Part shown: positions 782 through 11,389 of the stretch, piece by piece
How the letters are laid out: the number at the start of each line of letters is the position of its first letter
Numbering within the stretch: position 1 is the stretch's first letter
IMG/VR virus record: IMGVR_UViG_3300023487_000022
Strand: one strand, 5' to 3'
DNA length: 11,441 nt
Source of the DNA: a virus
Taxonomy: Duplodnaviria; Heunggongvirae; Uroviricota; Caudoviricetes
Program-made: the position numbers and the translations under genes
The notes under the pieces: model-generated
Told to the model about the DNA's origin: nothing
What the model saw: the letters and a program-made list of their open reading frames with translations, nothing else
Databases searched by the model: none

Positions 782-1000
782 TTAATCTTCGTCGTCCGGG
801 AACTCGCTGTGTACCGCGTCCACCAGCTCCCGCTTTTCATCTTCACTAAGCAGGTGCCAGATATCCTTCCCTTTGGGCGATTCCCCTTCTACCGGGACGA
901 ACGACCACAACTTGCGGTACAACTCCGGCCCCACTGCATCCAGACACTCAGCCAGGGAATCCACACCCCACACCTCAACCGTCACAGGCATCTTAATCAT
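782..1000 (-). CDS. Hypothetical small acidic protein (72 aa)
   Basis: ATG at 1000 with GAGGA 7 nt upstream. Product MIKMPVTVEVWGVDSLAECLD...EFPDDED; about 18 D/E versus 7 K/R by hand count. Confidence 0.7.
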   Translation of the reverse strand: MIKMPVTVEVWGVDSLAECLDAVGPELYRKLWSFVPVEGESPKGKDIWHLLSEDEKRELVDAVHSEFPDDED

Positions 1001-1032
1001 CTCTTCATCCTCACTTCGTTTATATAACGTCT

Positions 1033-1088
1033 AAACATGTTGTTTACTTATTGGTGTTATTGTCGCAATAAGACAAAGGAGAAAAAGG
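1033..1088 (-). promoter_or_regulatory. X-type conserved upstream module, copy 1 (AAACATGTTGTTTA dyad 1033-1046; TTATTG-TCG-CAATAA dyad 1057-1071)
   Basis: About 80% identical by eye to 3801-3856; both lie immediately upstream of minus-strand start codons (1000 and 3788). Confidence 0.55.
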
Positions 1089-1387
1089 ATTTTATGTCGT
1101 GAAAGCCAGGCTGGGCAGTGAATATCCGGGAACGACACGGGAACCAGTATTTACGATATTCTGCTCTACGCGCGCCGCAGGGCTGGTGGGCAGAATTTTC
1201 TTCTCCCCGAAAACCTACTGAAATCGCTTGAGACCCGAGGATGGTCTGGCAGAATGGAGTTCAGCAGCTGCACGAGAGGGAACGACACTCCCTCGCGATT
1301 TTCAGGCGAGCGAAGAGCAAGGCGCACTCCCGAAGATTTCCCGCACTGCTCCCGCAGTCGTCCCTCGCTCTGTACCGGGATGTACCC

Positions 1388-1513
1388 GTTTCCCGACCGG
1401 CAGCCAGCCTTTTCCCGGTTCGTATAGCGGGATTCCCACCGTTTCCCTGAAAAACCTCCAGCCTTTTCCCTGCGGCGACGTTCCCGTTCCTGAAAAGGGA
1501 CATGGCTTTTCCC
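1388..1513. repeat. Array of about 7 degenerate direct repeats with TTTCCC core, roughly 21 bp period
   Basis: TTCCC cores at about 1390, 1412, 1433, 1443, 1466, 1481 and 1509. Three copies share AGCCTTTTCCC-G (1407-1418, 1460-1471, 1504-1516). Confidence 0.5.
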
Positions 1514-2588
1514 TGGATGGCTCGAAGGCTGACCGAAGGGGTGGATAGGGACGTTACGGGGGATGAAAACTATGGCTTGAATTTATACGAAGAAAGTGGC
1601 GATACCCCTCCTTCCCTTCCCACTTATACCTCCCACGAATTTTCTCTCTTATGTGGGCATAAACCTTCTCTCTGATAACGCTCAATACGGCGACTATTCC
1701 TGTGGGTGAAATGGGTGGTTTGTTCTTTCTACCGGCATATGTGGTTTCGTTCTTCTTGAGGTGGTTCTTCTCTGTGTTTTCGTCAGGGTTGTTCTCGTTG
1801 TTTTGGTGATTGTTCTTCTCTGTGTATGGAGTAATGGCAGGTGGGCGATTCCTTTCGTTATTGTATTTGAGTTGTTTGTCTTGAGAGCGTGAAAGGCTTT
1901 TGTGGTTATTTGTGTATTGAGTAATGGCGTTTCCCCGCGAATGTTCTGTTTCGTGTCTTTGGGGATTGAGGGAGTCCTTGCGGTAACAGGCTTCGTTAGA
2001 GTTTCAGTGGTTCTGGTGTTTATTCGCTGTTTGGGGAATGGCGTGTAGTGGGTATCGCATGTATGAATGTTTCGAGTTGCCTGTGAAAGTTAGGTTGGTT
2101 GTCCGGTAGCCTGGGAAGAAGAGGTGGGTCTTTTCAGTAGCCTGCCATAAAGAGGTTGGTTGTTTTTGGGAATGTGGGTAATGGCGTCTCTGGGTTTCCT
2201 GTGGGTGTGGTTAGCTTGTTTTCTTGTGTCTGAAAACAACTTGTTTAGATGTCCAATATAACGCAACGGGAGCGCTTCTGAGCGTGTCTGTTTTTGGGTG
2301 GTATCACGAGTCGTTTTTGACGTTTTGGTCGCAGGGAGATGGATTCTGGTACGCTGGATTTGGGTATAAGAGATGGCGTGCGAAAACATCAACTTTTTAG
2401 ACCAAATCAGGGGAAAGCGTTGACTTTACGTTGATGTGTTATTTATTTGTTTTCTTATGGGTGTAATTGGCTTAAATGCCTTGTCACGCCTGGGATTGAG
2501 TGGGGTAGGGTGGTGGGGAAAGTGGCGATCAACGGACTCTTATAGAAATCCTCAATTTGTGACCGCCAATATCAACGAGCTGCAGCCG

Positions 2589-3158
2589 TTAGTTGTTCAG
2601 ATAGGCATCCGGAACGCGCACATAAAAGTTTCTTTCGCCGGTCAGTTCCAGAGTAACGTTTATGTCGTTGCCGTTATCCAGCGTAGCCGTCGCTTTATAG
2701 AACTTGTCCGTCACCTTGTCCTGAATTGTCACCTTCATACATTTCGGCGCTGTGGTTCCGTTATTCTCTTTCAGAATGGTCGTTACGAGAGGACAAGCCG
2801 CTTCTTCAAGAGCAACCTCTTCCTGGTGTGGGATACCGATGAAGATGTTACCAGCAAGCAACGCGACGATTACGATAAAAGGAAGTCGACTGCCTTTTGT
2901 AACGGTGGCACGTTTCCAGAGATAGACCGGAAGGAGAAATACTCCCCACAGGATGGCCGGTGGTTCATACCCTGCATCAGACAATGCCATTCTGTCAGCC
3001 ACCAGAAAGCCGAGTCCAGCGACTCCACCTATCACTATTGCATAATTCAAATACTCATCTGGCGGTGCTCCAAAGAAGAGAGGCAGTAAAGCTAGAAGCC
3101 ACGCATAAGCATTATTCAGAGGTTTTGTTTGTTGGTTCTGGGTTTCCATCACATCCAT
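2589..3158 (-). CDS. Hypothetical membrane protein (189 aa), hydrophobic N-terminal half and soluble C-terminal domain
   Basis: ORF track; hydrophobic stretches (WLLALLPLFF, AIVIGGVAGLGFLV, ILWGVFLLPVYLW, FIVIVALLAGNIFIGI). Start uncertain between ATG 3158 and ATG 3149; RBS weak. The overlapping plus-strand ORF 2436-3089 has a non-protein-like composition. Confidence 0.65.
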   Translation of the reverse strand: MDVMETQNQQTKPLNNAYAWLLALLPLFFGAPPDEYLNYAIVIGGVAGLGFLVADRMALSDAGYEPPAILWGVFLLPVYLWKRATVTKGSRLPFIVIVALLAGNIFIGIPHQEEVALEEAACPLVTTILKENNGTTAPKCMKVTIQDKVTDKFYKATATLDNGNDINVTLELTGERNFYVRVPDAYLNN

Positions 3159-3234
3159 TCCATCAGATTAAAAAGCGGTACTATGTTACCAATTTTCTTC
3201 GCTTATATGACATGATTACTCAACGAGTGGGCGA

Positions 3235-3555
3235 TCACCATTCCCATGCAGGTAGCCCATCCACCAGCTCGGCGTCGCAATCGAAGTGAACCACGTCAAA
3301 GCCGTCATCCAGTATGGTCTGTATGTTGGAGATCGCCTCTTGGGAAATGCCGTACTCACGCAGTTCTTCCTTCCAGTCATTCCCTCGCATTCCAGCACGA
3401 ACAATCCAGCCGTACTGTGTACCGTGTACCCAATTCAACCCGCGATCAGTAAGTGGGTCGAAGCAGGCAATGGGTAGCCGTTCTGAATCCGCTGCCGTTA
3501 CGTGGGCGGTGCTGATCACCGCCGTCTTATACGATTCGGTGATTTTCAGCATCAT
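3235..3555 (-). CDS. Hypothetical acidic protein (106 aa), translationally coupled to the upstream gene
   Basis: ATG at 3555 overlaps the TGA of the 3552-3788 CDS (ATGA overlap); AAGGAG upstream. About 18 D/E versus 8 K/R by hand count. Confidence 0.72.
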   Translation of the reverse strand: MMLKITESYKTAVISTAHVTAADSERLPIACFDPLTDRGLNWVHGTQYGWIVRAGMRGNDWKEELREYGISQEAISNIQTILDDGFDVVHFDCDAELVDGLPAWEW

Positions 3556-3788
3556 GCCTTCTCCTTTGGAAACAGAATGTTGGCCGTGTCAGAAATGACA
3601 TCCCAATTCACGCCGACGCTGGTGTCATGGCACTCTTTGATTTTTCGCAAAACCTGAACGCACTGTTCGTCAGTCAGGTCTGGTCGCACTTCACCTACAT
3701 CTTCCTTGTGCCACATCACCATCAGCAGCGGCTCGTCTTCTGGGTAGTTCTCCAGCTTTTCGATGATGTCTTTTGCGGTTCCGAACAT
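3552..3788 (-). CDS. Hypothetical small acidic protein (78 aa)
   Basis: ATG at 3788 with AAGGAG 6 nt upstream; the track start at 3806 is a TTG that contains this SD. Product MFGTAKDIIEKLENYPEDEPLL... Confidence 0.72.
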   Translation of the reverse strand: MFGTAKDIIEKLENYPEDEPLLMVMWHKEDVGEVRPDLTDEQCVQVLRKIKECHDTSVGVNWDVISDTANILFPKEKA

Positions 3789-3800
3789 GATCAACTCCTT

Positions 3801-3856
3801 AAACAATTTATTTTCTTATTTGTGTTATTATCTCAAATAACAAAAGGTAGAAAACA
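3801..3856 (-). promoter_or_regulatory. X-type conserved upstream module, copy 2 (GTTATT-N6-AATAAC dyad 3824-3841; AAACA/TGTTT-like dyads at 3801-3814 and 3851-3865)
   Basis: Homologous to 1033-1088; lies between the 3874-4140 and 3552-3788 genes. Confidence 0.55.
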
Positions 3857-3873
3857 AAATGTTTAAGGGATGA

Positions 3874-4140
3874 CTAGGTGAGTTTGAAGTCGTCTATGTC
3901 ATCAACAAACTCCATATACCTGGCTTCGACACTCGACAATCTGATCAGATACGCAAGCCCGTAACTTAGTGAAGTGGGTTGCTCCAGCACAAATTCGAAC
4001 CCATCCTCATGCGTTTTACCAAGCCAGAACCCCCCACCGTATTCTTTTTCACGTTGGAAGAAAACGAACTGTCCGGGTATTAGGTGCTTGAGTGCTTCGC
4101 CCCTATAGACGATCACATATTTAGAATTCTTGCTGCCCAT
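3874..4140 (-). CDS. Hypothetical protein (88 aa)
   Basis: ORF-track frame 3874..4197; start chosen at ATG 4140 because GAGG lies 6 nt upstream, while the ATG at 4197 has no SD. Confidence 0.6.
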   Translation of the reverse strand: MGSKNSKYVIVYRGEALKHLIPGQFVFFQREKEYGGGFWLGKTHEDGFEFVLEQPTSLSYGLAYLIRLSSVEARYMEFVDDIDDFKLT

Positions 4141-4327: not shown

Positions 4328-4531
4328 ATGAAGACCTATGATCGCAACCGTAACGCTATCACTACCGGCAGCCGAGTGATGGTGGCAACGAATGGTGCAA
4401 CGGGAGTCATCAAGGAAATCTGCGGAGAAGGCAAATCAGAAGAACAATTACGCCGCTCTGACTGCGTGTCTATCGAAGGTGTGGAAGGTCTATTCTGCCC
4501 AATGGATTTGGTTCGCCTGGGGTTCCATTAA
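4328..4531 (+). CDS. Hypothetical small protein (67 aa); candidate regulator
   Basis: ATG at 4328 with AGGAGG SD 5 nt upstream. It is the only plus-strand gene in the island and is transcribed divergently from the palindrome at 4229-4243. Confidence 0.72.
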   Translation: MKTYDRNRNAITTGSRVMVATNGATGVIKEICGEGKSEEQLRRSDCVSIEGVEGLFCPMDLVRLGFH

Positions 4532-4586: not shown

Positions 4587-5285
4587 TTACGGAACAGCGG
4601 TAATCAGATCGCAAATGCCTGTTTTAGTTAAATCACTATTCAGCTTCTGAAAATTGGCATTCAGCATTGCGGTATGTATTCGATTCTCAAGTTCAAAGAA
4701 GAGACCGATCTTGCCCTCTTTGGCTGCCACCTTCTTCCAAATATTCACCTGGTCATCTGCGATACGACTTGCGCAGGTGAACAAGAACGAACTCCCTCTG
4801 GGAAGGGATGTCGTGCTGTAGTATTCACCGTCAACTTCAATATACTTAGCTCGGAATGACTCCAGAGTTAGCTTTTTACCGCTCTCAGCCTGCTTTGTGT
4901 CTGCCTTGCTTGTCTTTTCCTGAACTTCAGGCTGTTTCTGCACAGGCTTTGGTGTCTCATTGACCACCGCAGTGCTGGCCGAACCATCCAAACTCTTGAG
5001 GCCATTAATTTGGATTAGATAAGCCAACTCCAGAGCCTTATCACCAGTGAGTTTTCCACGCATACTTACCCATTGACGCTGAACCGTCTTTAAGGCGTCT
5101 GCGTCCCCCGGGTTTGCTTTGAGTGCGTTGGAATAGGTAGAGCTAAGTTGTTCGTCTAATTTTGACAGGCGTTCGTTATCGCAGATTTTGTGTTCGATTT
5201 CTGCCGAAGCCTTTTGGCAGTCAAAGCTGGCTGCAAATACAGCCGGCGATGCCACCAACAATGATGCCAGTAGGATATTTTTCAT
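4587..5285 (-). CDS. Secreted protein with DUF1311 (LprI-like) N-terminal domain (232 aa)
   Basis: ATG at 5285 with GGAG upstream. Signal peptide MKNILLASLLVASPAVFA with an AXA-type cleavage site, followed by the Cys/Leu pattern FDCQKASAEIEHKICDNERLSKLDEQLSSTYSNALKA...QRQWVSMRG, which matches DUF1311 from memory. C-terminal domain unassigned. Confidence 0.78.
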   Translation of the reverse strand: MKNILLASLLVASPAVFAASFDCQKASAEIEHKICDNERLSKLDEQLSSTYSNALKANPGDADALKTVQRQWVSMRGKLTGDKALELAYLIQINGLKSLDGSASTAVVNETPKPVQKQPEVQEKTSKADTKQAESGKKLTLESFRAKYIEVDGEYYSTTSLPRGSSFLFTCASRIADDQVNIWKKVAAKEGKIGLFFELENRIHTAMLNANFQKLNSDLTKTGICDLITAVP

Positions 5286-5323
5286 ATTCACTCCATAAAT
5301 ATAAAAGCGCCTGACTATAGCAC

Positions 5324-5773: not shown

Positions 5774-6505
5774 TCAGCGGGGACTTAACAAAAGCGGAGA
5801 CTCGCTCGACAAGCCGGCCAGTGAACCAACATCCCCCCAATTCTGGTGTGTCAGCGCCCCGATACTTACCACTCCAGGCAGCACTTCTTTGTGGTTGTGG
5901 TAGTGCCCGGACAACAATAAACGGAAGCCGATATCTTTCAGTTCCTGTGCGTCGATGCCGACATCGGGCATGGTGGGGATCGCTTTGTTGATTGAGGTAT
6001 GTACAACAACATCATGGTTGTCACCATCCAGCCCGGAACGCAGCGTTTTGAGATCGCTGATAAGTTCTGCGTAGTTATTACGCCAGCTAATCAGATGGAC
6101 GGTTACGTCGCCCATTTTGATGGAATGAGGACGTTTGCCGCAGACGATTTCCACACCGATTGAGCGCAGAGAGGCTGCTGCATTGGCGCTGTATACGGAA
6201 TCGTTGGTTTCGAGGTCGTGGTTGCCAGCCAGCATTACCACCTTGAGACCCAACTCTTTGATGATCCACTCGTAAGTTTCGGTCACGAAATGCAGAACGG
6301 AAGGTGATATAGCACCGCGAACATGGAAGGTATCACCAGCTACCAGCATGTTCTTACAGCCAGCAGCTTTCATCGCTTTGGCCGCCTCCTTCGTAGCGTC
6401 CAGTTGGATCTCCAGCCGAGAGTTAAGCCCGTCAGCGTTTGTTGTCGCAAAAGCATCCCAACGATGATAATGGGGATCTGATATTACCCCGTATGGCAAT
6501 GTCAT
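5774..6505 (-). CDS. Calcineurin-like metallophosphoesterase (243 aa)
   Basis: ATG at 6505 with AAGGA upstream. Ordered motifs ISDPHYH, GDTFHVRG, GNHD and GHYHNH match the metallophosphatase signature (D-x-H, GD-x-x-D/H-R-G, GNH[DE], GH-x-H). Confidence 0.75.
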   Translation of the reverse strand: MTLPYGVISDPHYHRWDAFATTNADGLNSRLEIQLDATKEAAKAMKAAGCKNMLVAGDTFHVRGAISPSVLHFVTETYEWIIKELGLKVVMLAGNHDLETNDSVYSANAAASLRSIGVEIVCGKRPHSIKMGDVTVHLISWRNNYAELISDLKTLRSGLDGDNHDVVVHTSINKAIPTMPDVGIDAQELKDIGFRLLLSGHYHNHKEVLPGVVSIGALTHQNWGDVGSLAGLSSESPLLLSPR

Positions 6506-7744: not shown

Positions 7745-7846
7745 ATCCACTATAGGGAGCAAAATAACCACTGTAGAGAGCATAATAACCGCTATGAAGA
7801 GCAAAACAACCTCTCTGGAGAGTAGTCGGTATCCACTGTAGTGAGT
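7745..7846 (+). repeat. Iteron cluster 1: 5 direct repeats, about 21 bp spacing, core A(A/T)CCACT(A/G)TAG(A/T)GAG
   Basis: Copies at 7745-7760, 7766-7781, 7787-7802, 7808-7823 (degenerate) and 7831-7846. Confidence 0.8.
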
Positions 7847-8127: not shown

Positions 8128-8249
8128 ATCCACTATAGTGAGAAGAACAACCACTATAGAGAGTAAATCAACCACTATGGAGAGTAGAAAAACCGCTGTA
8201 GGCGGTAGGATAACCACTGTGATGGGTGCTACTATCCACTGTAATCAGT
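8128..8249 (+). repeat. Iteron cluster 2: 6 direct repeats at 21-22 bp spacing, immediately upstream of repA
   Basis: Copies at 8128-8143, 8149-8164, 8170-8185, 8191-8206, 8212-8227 and 8234-8249. Confidence 0.82.
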
Positions 8250-8288: not shown

Positions 8289-9344
8289 ATGAGCGTAAAC
8301 GACAATAAAAACATTGCGATAAGCGAAGCATTTTCCGAAACAGACAAAAAGACCGGCGAAGTTGTTACGTTAGTTCCTAACACCAACAACACAGTTCAGC
8401 CTGTTGCTCTGATGCGTCTTGGTCTCTTCGTTCCGACGCTGAAATCGACATCCAGGGGTAGAAAGGGGCAAATGGTCTCTATGGACGCCTCCGCTGAACT
8501 CAAACAGCTGTCTCTGGCCAAAGCCGAAGGGTACGAGGATATAAGGATTGCTGGTCTTCGTCTTGATATGGATAACGATTTCAAAACATGGGTGGGCATC
8601 ATCCACGCGTTCGCCAAGCACAAGGTTGTTGGTGACACCGTCACGTTGCCGTTCGTCGAGTTCGTCAGACTTTGTGGCATACCAACAGCCAGATCGTCCG
8701 CGAAGTTACGTAAGCGCCTGGACAGCTCTCTAAGTCGTATCGCCACAAACACCATCTCATTCCGCAGCAAAGGCTCTGAAGAGTATTACGTTACGCACCT
8801 TGTGCAGACGGCAAAGTACAGTACCAAGAATGACACGGTCGAACTGAAGGCCGATCCTAAGATTTTCGAACTTTACCAGTTCGACAAAAAGGTGCTTTTG
8901 CAACTTCGGGCCATCAACGAACTCTCCAGAAAGGAATCCGCGCAGGCGCTCTACACCTTCATTGAAAGTTTGCCACCAGACCCGGCGCCAATCTCATTGG
9001 CTCGCTTACGCGCCAGACTTAACTTAACCAGCCGCACCATTACCCAGAATGCGACAGTCAGGAAGGCGATGGAGCAGCTGCGAGAGATCGGCTATCTCGA
9101 TTACACTGAAGTGAAACGCGGCAGCTCGGTCTACTTCGTCATCCACTATAGACGGCCGAAGTTACGTTCGGCACTGCCGCCATCTATGGCTACGCCTGAA
9201 GAGCCAGAAGATATCTTGCCAGGTGATGATCCGGAGGACATTATCGATGTTGCCCCTGAAGAAAAAGACGGGGAAATGGTCATGTTGAGCAAGGAAGAAC
9301 TGGCGATTCTCGAAGAGCTGCGCAAGGCAAAGGCTCGCAAATAG
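8289..9344 (+). CDS. repA: Iteron-binding replication initiator RepA, RepFIB/P1 RepA family (351 aa)
   Basis: Product contains [57 protein letters not shown] and [10 protein letters not shown], which I recognise as conserved in P1 RepA and RepFIB RepA. Flanked on both sides by iterons. Confidence 0.9.
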
Positions 9345-11172: not shown

Positions 11173-11389
11173 TCAACAAAAACTGGCCACCGAGTTAGAT
11201 TTTTTCCAGTATCGATTTTCCGATTCATTTGGGGGTAATCCACCGTTATATTCGTGCGGTCTTAGTGCGCTGTAATATCCAACGATATAGTCCGTTATGG
11301 CGTGAGCTGCCTCGCTGAAGCTTACGTAACCCACCACCGGCATCCATTCGTTCTTCAGACTCCTGAAGAAGCGTTCCATTGGGCTGTTG
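11173..11389 (-). pseudogene. C-terminal fragment of an IS3-family transposase (OrfB tail), truncated upstream
   Basis: Reads ...SVNSPMERFFRSLKNEW...YYSALRPHEYNGGLPPNESE, resembling the conserved IS3-family DDE-domain tail (DNAxxESFFxxLKxE ... RxHxxLGxxxPxEFE). An in-frame stop at 11390-11392 sits just upstream of the conserved motif, and no other frame continues the homology. Confidence 0.55.

What the first reader, a model, noticed from the sequence alone, without database searches (positions are those of the whole stretch)
2589..4140. Four-gene minus-strand operon: two coupled acidic proteins followed by a membrane protein
Order is 3874-4140 (88 aa), then 3552-3788 (78 aa) with its stop overlapping the start of 3235-3555 (106 aa), then 2589-3158 (189 aa) with hydrophobic helices and a soluble C-terminal domain. 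Stop/start overlap implies stoichiometric co-expression, a pattern seen in toxin-antitoxin pairs, effector-immunity pairs and two-component anti-defence modules. None of the four proteins is recognisable to me.
Basis: partly seen in the sequence, partly recalled or inferred. Interest (0 to 1): 0.6.

Follow-up and report, generated by a model that had tools for sequence, protein, structure and literature searches.

The report
Leading-region-type genes in a phage-plasmid
The four small minus-strand genes are real and conserved, but they are a patchwork of independently shuffled accessory genes in an SSU5-type phage-plasmid; two belong to uncharacterised families typical of the first-to-enter regions of conjugative plasmids, and they do not form a toxin-antitoxin unit.

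Summary
The ORFs, their coordinates, the stop/start overlap, the acidity and the membrane character are all confirmed. All four genes are under purifying selection (dN/dS 0.04-0.17). The window is the replicon-proximal accessory region of an SSU5/pHCM2-type phage-plasmid, and identical copies sit in RefSeq as "hypothetical protein".

- **g3 (106 aa)** is a clear DUF5983 member (PF19419, 78 bits).
- **g2 (78 aa)** is a four-helix domain from a very large family with no Pfam model (1,985 clusters, many phyla). It is remotely related to the N-terminal half of DUF1380.
- **Published context:** DUF5983 and DUF1380 are both listed among the 100 most prevalent families enriched in plasmid leading regions, the "anti-defence islands". 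There they lie beside ArdA/KlcA, SSB, PsiA, DUF932 and orphan methylases, but not next to each other.
- **Co-occurrence:** of 46 SSU5-like loci with g3, 19 have g2, 9 have g4 and 8 have all four. g1 also occurs alone in P22-like and P2-like phages. Where g2 and g3 are both present, the overlap is always kept (19/19).

The toxin-antitoxin and effector-immunity readings are therefore disfavoured. An early establishment or anti-defence role is the best guess, resting on association only. No structural or functional analogue was found.

The parts
3874..4140 (-). g1, an 88-aa acidic protein (phrog_2100). It is an independent phage accessory gene with the conserved core VVYRGE...VFFQR.KE.GGGFWLG.
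   Evidence: The ORF and sequence are, the PHROG match, and the 88-cluster family alignment. No Pfam or PDB match was found. It occurs alone in the ea region of P22-like phages and directly after DinI in P2-like prophages. dN/dS is 0.04-0.09.
3789..3873 (-). AT-rich leader in front of g2. It holds a TGAGATAAT extended -10-like motif overlapping the near-palindrome TTATTTGAGATAA, followed by an AAGGAG ribosome-binding site. It is a putative separate promoter for g2-g3.
   Evidence: The sequence is. The same leader directly abuts g3 in relatives that lack g2. The palindrome occurs once in the window. The simple consensus scan did not call it a promoter, so this is an inference.
3552..3788 (-). 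g2, a 78-aa acidic four-helix protein. It belongs to a large family with no Pfam model, built on a domain of about 55 aa (W..eDV..vRPDLTDEQA.EVL......HDA.iGINWDVI). It is remotely related to the N-terminal half of DUF1380.
3235..3555 (-). g3, a DUF5983 (PF19419) protein of 106 aa, or 105 aa from the ATG at 3552. It is translationally coupled to g2 and is the constant element of this locus in SSU5-like elements.
2589..3158 (-). g4, a 189-aa membrane protein (phrog_12486) with 3-4 transmembrane segments. Its C-terminal domain of about 80 aa has two cysteines and is predicted periplasmic by the positive-inside rule. It is a variable cargo gene.
   Evidence: The ORF is and the hydropathy profile. 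No Pfam, NCBIfam, PADLOC or PDB match was found. It occurs in 119 plasmid records only and is absent from SSU5 itself. In L090 it is 83% identical where g3 is only 50% identical.

Best explanation
The region is a piece of the variable accessory-gene array beside the RepA replicon of an SSU5/pHCM2-type phage-plasmid. It is not a fixed four-gene system. It is a mosaic of at least three independently exchanged modules: g1, the g2-g3 pair, and g4. g3, a DUF5983 protein, is the constant anchor. g2, a DUF1380-like domain protein, is an optional add-on, inserted precisely between the shared leader and g3 and translationally coupled to it. g4 is a variable membrane-protein cargo, and g1 is a free-standing phage accessory gene.

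Inferred function: g2 and g3 are the phage-plasmid's counterparts of the uncharacterised establishment genes that conjugative plasmids and ICEs carry in their leading-region anti-defence islands. They would be made early after the DNA enters a new cell. As small acidic non-enzymatic binding proteins, they would neutralise a host defence or DNA-surveillance function, with g2 modulating or extending the action of g3 as a complex. g4 most likely acts at the envelope, for example in superinfection exclusion.

Shown here: gene reality, family assignments, mosaic distribution, conserved coupling and genomic associations. Inferred only: early expression, a g2-g3 complex, anti-defence activity and the role of g4.
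For: Element identity:
- 314 plasmid records match, nearly all about 110 kb and non-mobilizable. Phage SSU5 matches at 82% identity, and an IncFIB-type RepA with iterons lies nearby.

Family assignments:
- g3 matches PF19419 at 78 bits.
- The g2 family aligns to the N-terminal half of DUF1380 (hhalign probability 81%).

Leading-region link:
- The supplementary table of Samuel et al. 2024 lists DUF1380 (rank 7), DUF4942 (ranks 24 and 76) and DUF5983 (rank 72) among the top-100 leading-region-enriched families, all uncharacterised.
- g3 homologues sit after ssb in the pOXA-48 leading region, and beside PsiA or DUF932 and the oriT-proximal transglycosylase and TraM in F-like plasmids.
- They also sit next to DUF4942 in Klebsiella plasmids and in a Klebsiella SSU5-like element.
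- Distant g2 relatives flank ArdA/antirestriction genes, DNA methylase, ParB and PsiA.
- In 78 loci from many phyla, the neighbours of g2-like genes are RadC, DUF932, ArdA, methylases and DUF6876.

Mosaic structure:
- Co-occurrence table, the shared leader and the g3 tree, which shows a nested loss of g2 and a discordant g4.

Coupling and selection:
- The overlap is kept in 19 of 19 loci.
- All four genes are under purifying selection.
Against: - No experimental function is known for any of the four families. The anti-defence idea is guilt by association only.
- A phage-plasmid has no oriT or leading strand, so the defining positional logic of leading regions does not apply here.
- A pI of about 4.5 is only moderately acidic.
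- g3 has an invariant His and Asp and several invariant Trp, which could equally indicate ligand binding or catalysis.
- Expression timing is unknown, and no promoter was called by the consensus scan.
Confidence: 0.55

Rival explanations
1. g2-g3 is a toxin-antitoxin (addiction) pair that stabilises the phage-plasmid. One protein would be toxic and the other would neutralise it in a 1:1 complex.
For: The two small genes are translationally coupled, and the overlap is conserved in 19 of 19 loci. A published survey lists DUF5983 as a recurrent partner immediately downstream of the CbtA toxin in E. coli (PMC10790755). Plasmid prophages often carry addiction modules (general knowledge).
Against: - g3 occurs without g2 in 27 of 46 related loci and in thousands of plasmids, so g3 cannot be a toxin that needs g2.
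- g2-like genes occur in 78 loci without any DUF5983, and their tightly linked partners are diverse.
- One relative (L138) keeps g2 beside a g3 that shares only its first 19 residues with the intact protein.
- No CbtA or other toxin or antitoxin domain is present.
- Neither protein shows a recognised DNA-binding antitoxin fold.
Confidence: 0.07
2. The unit is built around the membrane protein g4. g4 would be a superinfection-exclusion, effector-immunity or lysis-control protein, and g2-g3 would be its cytoplasmic regulators.
For: g4 has 3-4 transmembrane segments and a probable periplasmic Cys-containing domain. It lies 76 nt downstream on the same strand with no predicted terminator. Membrane proteins in prophage accessory regions are often exclusion proteins (general knowledge).
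Against: - g4 is present in only 9 of 46 loci with g3 and is absent from SSU5 itself. Other lineages carry SSU5_106/107-type genes in that slot.
- In L090, g4 is 83% identical while g3 is 50% identical and g2 is absent. That argues for independent exchange.
- g4 has no homology to any known exclusion, holin or immunity family.
Confidence: 0.12
3. g3 (DUF5983) is a small-molecule-binding or detoxifying protein with half of a glyoxalase/bleomycin-resistance-like fold. It could act as a sponge for a signalling nucleotide or a binder of a toxic metabolite, with g2 as an accessory subunit.
Confidence: 0.12
4. g2 is a transcription modulator, a helical bundle resembling sigma-factor region 2 that binds RNA polymerase or a regulator. 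The cluster would then control the phage-plasmid's own gene expression rather than host defence.
Confidence: 0.08

Closest known systems
DUF5983 (PF19419), found in plasmid leading regions and downstream of the CbtA toxin in E. coli CP4-type islands. By position this corresponds to yeeW, which is my inference.
   Same: g3 matches the Pfam model end to end (78 bits). It shares the STAH..D, WxHG..GWIVR and HFDxDA..W.W motifs with the pOXA-48 and F-like plasmid members. It is a stand-alone protein of 100-110 aa, like them.
   Different: Here it lies in a phage-plasmid, not next to oriT or CbtA. It is translationally coupled to a DUF1380-like gene, an arrangement seen only in one clade of SSU5-like elements.
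DUF1380 (PF07128; YcgB/YubF-type proteins of IncF, IncI and IncL leading regions)
   Same: g2 residues 18-74 align to DUF1380 residues 19-78 (hhalign probability 81%, E 1e-5). The shared motif is W..EDV....D..LT.eEA..VL. RefSeq labels g2 "DUF1380 domain-containing". Both families keep company with antirestriction genes.
   Different: g2 does not reach the Pfam model at any reported E-value. It lacks the C-terminal 60 residues or so of DUF1380. It belongs to a much larger, phylum-spanning family that has no Pfam model.
Anti-defence islands in plasmid leading regions (Samuel et al., Nature 2024, PMC11541004)
   Same: The gene families are the same: DUF5983, DUF1380-like and, nearby in relatives, DUF4942 methyltransferase-like. 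The island is likewise an array of small co-directional genes of mostly unknown function.
   Different: The island definition rests on position next to oriT on the transferred strand and on ssDNA (Frpo) promoters. This element has no relaxase or oriT and enters cells as injected phage DNA. No known anti-defence gene lies inside the window (and Pfam results).
Type II/IV toxin-antitoxin pairs (e.g. CbtA-CbeA)
   Same: Two small, adjacent, translationally coupled genes on a plasmid prophage.
   Different: There is no toxin or antitoxin domain. The partners are not obligately linked, and both proteins are acidic.
Phage accessory ("moron") slots: the P22 ea region and the P2 cargo slot between gene A/DinI and the portal gene
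   Same: g1 homologues occupy exactly these slots. Like other cargo there, g1 is small, of unknown function and moves between unrelated phage types.
   Different: In the window, g1 is placed upstream of g2-g3 in a phage-plasmid. No function is known for any member.

Membership tests
DUF5983 (Pfam PF19419), for g3 | Score at or above the Pfam gathering threshold (27 bits) over the whole model | tested here: met
   77.9 bits, E 7e-22, model positions 2-90 of 90. The pOXA-48 and Klebsiella homologues score 80 and 76 bits.
DUF1380 (Pfam PF07128), for g2 | Score at or above the Pfam gathering threshold (26 bits) | tested here: not met
   No hit even at E<=10. A true leading-region DUF1380 protein scores 39 bits in the same library.
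DUF1380 (Pfam PF07128), for g2 | Full two-part architecture of about 137 aa (N-terminal W..EDV/LT.eEA domain plus a C-terminal extension) | tested here: not met
   g2 is 78 aa. Only the N-terminal part aligns: hhalign probability 81%, E 1e-5, g2 residues 18-74 against DUF1380 residues 19-78.
Toxin-antitoxin pair, for g2-g3 | Obligate co-occurrence of the two partners | tested here: not met
   g3 occurs without g2 in 27 of 46 SSU5-like loci and in conjugative plasmids. The g2 family occurs without DUF5983 in 78 of 78 distant loci.
Toxin-antitoxin pair, for g2-g3 | A recognisable toxin or antitoxin domain, or an adjacent CbtA toxin as in the published DUF5983 pairing | tested here: not met
   No TA-related hit in Pfam, NCBIfam or PADLOC for any of the four proteins or their neighbours.
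Toxin-antitoxin pair, for g2-g3 | Toxicity of one partner and its neutralisation by the other | not testable with these tools
   This needs expression experiments.
Plasmid leading-region anti-defence island | The gene families are statistically enriched in leading regions | tested here: met
   DUF5983 is rank 72 and DUF1380 rank 7 in the supplementary table of PMC11541004. Contexts were verified in pOXA-48, pEB170, pKPC-224e and F-like plasmids.
Plasmid leading-region anti-defence island | Location next to oriT on the first-transferred strand of a conjugative element | tested here: not met
   The closest records are about 110 kb, non-mobilizable SSU5-like phage-plasmids without a relaxase. No relaxase or oriT gene is in the window.
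Plasmid leading-region anti-defence island | Demonstrated inhibition of a defence system | not testable with these tools
   No experimental data were found for DUF5983 or DUF1380.
SSU5/pHCM2-type phage-plasmid backbone | Nucleotide and gene-order similarity to phage SSU5 and its plasmid relatives, with an IncFIB-type RepA | tested here: met
   82-84% identity to SSU5 with the same gene order (ydfZ, LprI-like, g1-g2-g3). RepA with Rep3 domains and 21-bp iterons. 39 IMG/VR viral contigs carry the locus.
Tad2/DUF2829, for g1 (a lead from a UniRef label on one relative) | Match to the DUF2829 Pfam model or to solved Tad2 structures | tested here: not met
   None of the 52 family members hits DUF2829 at E<=1. 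The family profile finds no PDB chain at E<=10.
Known anti-phage defence systems (PADLOC) | Match to any PADLOC protein model | tested here: not met
   No hits for the four proteins or for six neighbours.

The most novel reading that the evidence does not exclude
The g2 module of about 55 aa would define a large, unrecognised superfamily specific to mobile elements and spanning many phyla, with the N-terminal half of DUF1380 as one branch. In SSU5-type phage-plasmids it would have been recruited as the partner of DUF5983 to form a two-component inhibitor of a host defence or DNA-surveillance system. That would show that phage-plasmids and conjugative plasmids use a shared, still uncharacterised establishment toolkit.
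Probability: 0.2. Interest if true: 0.6.

Novelty: new member of a known kind. Interest (0 to 1): 0.35.

Why it matters
DUF5983 and DUF1380 are among the most abundant uncharacterised gene families in the leading regions of clinically important plasmids, including pOXA-48, the IncF family and Klebsiella IncFIB(K) plasmids. The same families are conserved under purifying selection in SSU5-type phage-plasmids, which enter cells by injection rather than conjugation. That argues their job concerns establishment of incoming DNA in general, not conjugation as such.

It also offers a simple genetic system for assigning a function: a plaque-forming phage, with natural variants that have or lack g2. 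Separately, the g2-like domain family (about 2,000 clusters at 50% identity, with no Pfam model) is a gap in current domain databases. As it stands the locus is ordinary accessory cargo of unknown function, already present in RefSeq.

Tried and rejected
- **afdb50 fold search.** The library was unavailable. BFVD gave only other DUF5983 proteins.
- **Split-gene idea.** I considered whether g2+g3 is a split form of a longer DUF5983 protein. Rejected: stand-alone DUF5983 proteins in pOXA-48, pEB170 and pKPC-224e are 102-110 aa. Neither they nor their upstream neighbours match the g2 profile.
- **Conserved partner for the g2 family.** Rejected: 47 tightly linked neighbours fall into many small clusters, and none resembles DUF5983.
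- **g1 as Tad2/DUF2829.** This lead came from a UniRef label. Rejected.
- **Database searches that found nothing.** PDB sequence searches with single proteins and with family profiles; PADLOC; NCBIfam; Rfam at gathering threshold over the whole window.
- **Promoter and terminator scan.** It called nothing useful in the cluster. The proposed promoter before g2 rests on conservation only.
- **Operator regulon.** The leader palindrome occurs only once in the window.
- **Literature search for YeeW.** It returned unrelated papers.
Full report
**1. Observation**

The six-frame ORF list and the minus-strand sequence confirm four ORFs on the minus strand at the stated coordinates:
- g1, 3874-4140 (88 aa)
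- g2, 3552-3788 (78 aa)
- g3, 3235-3555 (106 aa)
- g4, 2589-3158 (189 aa)

RefSeq annotates identical copies with almost the same boundaries. The g3 start is 3 nt later and the g4 start 9 nt later. g2 and g3 have AAGGAG ribosome-binding sites.

The junction reads GCATGATGCTG. The g2 stop TGA overlaps the first ATG by 4 nt or the second ATG by 1 nt. Relatives that have only the second ATG suggest that 3552 is the conserved g3 start.

The pI values are 5.27, 4.54, 4.44 and 4.86. g4 has two strong and two weaker hydrophobic segments and a soluble C-terminal part of about 80 aa with two cysteines. By the positive-inside rule (loop KRATVTKGSR, residues 83-91) the C-terminal domain should be periplasmic. 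That is an inference.

The genes are real. dN/dS against diverged relatives is 0.04-0.17 for all four, and each matches a PHROG family over its whole length.

A single operon is not shown. There are gaps of 85 nt and 76 nt, and no terminator or consensus promoter was predicted.

**2. What the element is**

The 1.9-kb region matches 314 plasmid records. Of these, 304 are typed non-mobilizable, and the listed records are mostly about 105-120 kb. Hosts are Enterobacter, Escherichia, Klebsiella, Salmonella and Citrobacter. It also matches Salmonella phage SSU5 at 82% identity, but only over g3-g2-g1.

In SSU5 the order is ydfZ, g1 (SSU5_103), g2 (SSU5_104), g3 (SSU5_105), followed by SSU5_106/107 in place of g4. 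The window also holds a Rep3-type RepA (8289-9344) with two sets of 21-bp iterons. It is therefore the replicon-proximal accessory region of an SSU5/pHCM2-type phage-plasmid, a recognised group (PMC7969092).

**3. g3**

g3 is a clear DUF5983 member (PF19419, 77.9 bits against a cutoff of 27). Close relatives (81 clusters) come mostly from contigs of about 105-115 kb. tblastn finds the family in 2,488 plasmid records, 1,736 of them conjugative.

Contexts in conjugative plasmids:
- In pOXA-48 (IncL) the homologue (43% identity, 80 bits to PF19419) follows ssb in the leading region. It lies 3 kb from a DUF1380 gene and an antirestriction gene.
- In F-like plasmids it lies beside PsiA or DUF932 and the oriT-proximal transglycosylase and TraM. 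pEB170 has two tandem paralogues.
- In Klebsiella IncFIB(K)/HI1B plasmids and in a Klebsiella SSU5-like element it is near DUF4942.
- A published survey reports DUF5983 as the gene always found downstream of the CbtA toxin in E. coli (PMC10790755).

**4. g2**

g2 has only 23 close clusters, mostly from contigs of about 100 kb, and no Pfam hit even at E<=10. An exhaustive profile search found 1,985 clusters at E<=1e-3, 338 of them at E<=1e-10. They share a module of about 55 aa: I.I.W.ieDV..vRPDLTDEQA.EVL......HDA.iGINWDVI...AD.LFPe. The module occurs alone, in tandem, or at the C-terminus of varied proteins.

None of the 65 members scanned has a Pfam family on this module, and all 65 hit phrog_10258, which has no known function. 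In species-representative genomes the family occurs in Planctomycetota, Cyanobacteria, Legionella, other Gamma- and Alphaproteobacteria, Chloroflexota, Bacillota, Verrucomicrobiota and Bacteroidota.

A profile-profile comparison with five leading-region proteins that RefSeq labels DUF1380 gives probability 81% and E 1e-5. g2 residues 18-74 align to DUF1380 residues 19-78. g2 is therefore a remote relative of the N-terminal half of DUF1380, not a Pfam member.

**5. Association with establishment and anti-defence arrays**

Distant g2 relatives on plasmids lie between an antirestriction gene, a DNA methylase, ParB and PsiA. I took the genes immediately flanking g2-like genes in the distant loci, 127 proteins in all. 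The recurrent Pfam families were RadC, DUF932, DUF6876, cytosine and adenine methylases, ArdA, DUF6573, DUF5895, DUF3560 and DUF4262. This is the typical content of ICE and plasmid leading regions.

The supplementary table of Samuel et al. 2024 lists DUF1380 (rank 7; YcgB/YubF), DUF4942 (ranks 24 and 76; YdiA) and DUF5983 (rank 72; 618 members) among the 100 most prevalent families enriched in leading regions. All are classed as uncharacterised. That paper proposes that many such families are anti-defence genes.

**6. Is the four-gene cluster a unit?**

No. I examined 46 SSU5-like loci that carry g3: 39 from IMG/VR, plus plasmid, phage and genome loci. They were not dereplicated.

| Content | Loci (of 46) |
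|---|---|
| g3 | 46 |
| g1 within 4 kb | 33 |
| g2 | 19 |
| g4 | 9 |
| all four | 8 |
| g3 without g2 | 27 |

In loci without g2, the same AT-rich leader that precedes g2 in the window abuts the g3 start codon directly. The leader reads TGAGATAATAAC...TTTAAGGAG. g2 therefore behaves as a precisely inserted or deleted cassette.

On a g3 tree, g2 is absent from the Klebsiella clades and was lost at least once inside the clade that has g2 (L099-L101). g4 is patchy. In pM-64-197, g4 is 83% identical while g3 is only 50% identical and g2 and g1 are missing.

The slot after g3 holds different cargo in different lineages:
- SSU5_106-like genes of 58-63 aa;
- a 61-aa ORF with a sub-threshold hit to T7 gp5.9;
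- SSU5_107-like genes of about 400 aa;
- or g4.

None of the 78 distant g2-family loci has a DUF5983 gene within 5 kb, and their tightly linked partners are heterogeneous.

g1 occurs alone in the ea region of P22-like phages. In P2-like prophages it sits directly after DinI, downstream of gene A, in front of variable cargo before the portal gene.

One thing is constant. Whenever g2 and g3 are both present, the stop/start overlap is kept: 19 of 19 loci, in four junction forms. One relative (L138) keeps g2 with the same 4-nt overlap, but the downstream ORF shares only its first 19 residues with g3.

**7. Interpretation**

g3 cannot be a toxin dependent on g2, neither partner is obligate, and no toxin, antitoxin, immunity or defence model matches.

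The best-supported reading is that this is mosaic accessory cargo. The g2-g3 core belongs to the uncharacterised establishment gene families of plasmid leading regions, here carried by a phage-plasmid. I infer, but cannot show, the following:
- g2-g3 are expressed early from their own promoter.
- They act as small acidic binding proteins against a host defence or DNA-surveillance function.
- g2 acts as an optional co-factor of g3.
- g4 is separate, envelope-acting cargo.

Rival readings are kept at low confidence: TA pair, g4-centred exclusion module, ligand-binding g3, and sigma-like g2.

**8. Novelty and score**

Identical sequences are already in RefSeq as hypothetical or DUF1380-domain proteins. 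Both families are known as families of unknown function, and their leading-region enrichment is published.

What I did not find described in the searched literature:
- the coupled g2-g3 arrangement, specific to one SSU5 clade;
- its cassette-like gain and loss;
- the size and breadth of the g2-like domain family, which has no Pfam model.

This is a new member of a known kind, of modest interest (0.35). The most novel reading not excluded is a two-component anti-defence pair built from a new superfamily specific to mobile elements. I put its probability at about 0.2.

Noticed in passing
window 1000-2588: A 1.6-kb stretch directly downstream of g4 has no annotated gene in RefSeq relatives. It is strongly G+T-rich on the + strand at about 1700-2400 (GC skew up to +0.43, AT skew down to -0.47) and contains degenerate direct repeats. 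It is conserved at 72-84% identity over 81-99% of its length in nine SSU5-group phage records (63-65% coverage in three more), including Klebsiella phages in which tblastn found no g2 or g4. ORFs of 60 aa or more differ in strand and position among four relatives, and there is no Rfam match. It looks like a conserved non-coding backbone element of unknown function.
   Followed up: partly
window 3828-3840, within the g1-g2 intergenic leader 3789-3873: The near-palindrome TTATTTGAGATAA overlaps a TGnGATAAT extended -10-like motif. In relatives L099-L101 it is the perfect palindrome TTATCTGAGATAA. It may be an operator and promoter for g2-g3. It occurs only once in the window.
   Followed up: partly
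L090 3337-3522 (E. coli plasmid pM-64-197, between the g3-like gene and g4): A 61-aa acidic ORF in the slot after g3 has a weak, sub-threshold Pfam hit to the phage T7 gp5.9 RecBCD inhibitor (PF25708, E 0.006, 16.9 bits against a cutoff of 24.5). In SSU5 and Klebsiella relatives the same slot holds an unrelated 58-63-aa gene of the SSU5_106 family.
   Followed up: no
L132-L137 (Raoultella and Pantoea P2-like prophages); L003 (P22-like phage SE1): Homologues of g1 sit immediately after the DinI-like gene downstream of replication gene A, in front of variable cargo before the portal gene of P2-like prophages. They also sit in the ea region of P22-like phages. The gene has moved between three unrelated temperate-phage types.
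   Followed up: partly
window 7747-7822 and 8130-8201: Two arrays of about 3.5 copies of a 21-bp repeat (CCACTATAGAGAG.A.AA.AA) lie upstream of repA (8289-9344). They are presumably the iterons of the plasmid origin.
   Followed up: no
window 11173-11379: A C-terminal fragment of an IS3-family transposase/integrase lies at the window edge. Related plasmids have IS3, IS1 and IS26 copies around this backbone segment, so the window probably comes from a rearranged or hybrid SSU5-like plasmid.
   Followed up: no
window 4328-4531 (+), 4587-5291 (-), 5774-6505 (-): The neighbouring cargo is a YdfZ family protein (PF14001), a secreted LprI/DUF1311-like protein, and a metallophosphoesterase resembling the SbcD subunit (phrog_100). 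All three are conserved in SSU5-like elements.
   Followed up: no
L139 3465-3797 and 4001-4312 (Erwinia billingiae pEB170): Two tandem DUF5983 paralogues (110 and 103 aa) lie beside the oriT-proximal transglycosylase and TraM of an F-like plasmid. The family can therefore duplicate in place.
   Followed up: partly
L138 3001-3258 (Enterobacter ludwigii 61-kb plasmid): g2 is intact and keeps the 4-nt overlap, but the downstream ORF shares only its first 19 residues with g3 and then continues as low-complexity sequence. It looks like a decayed or replaced g3.
   Followed up: partly
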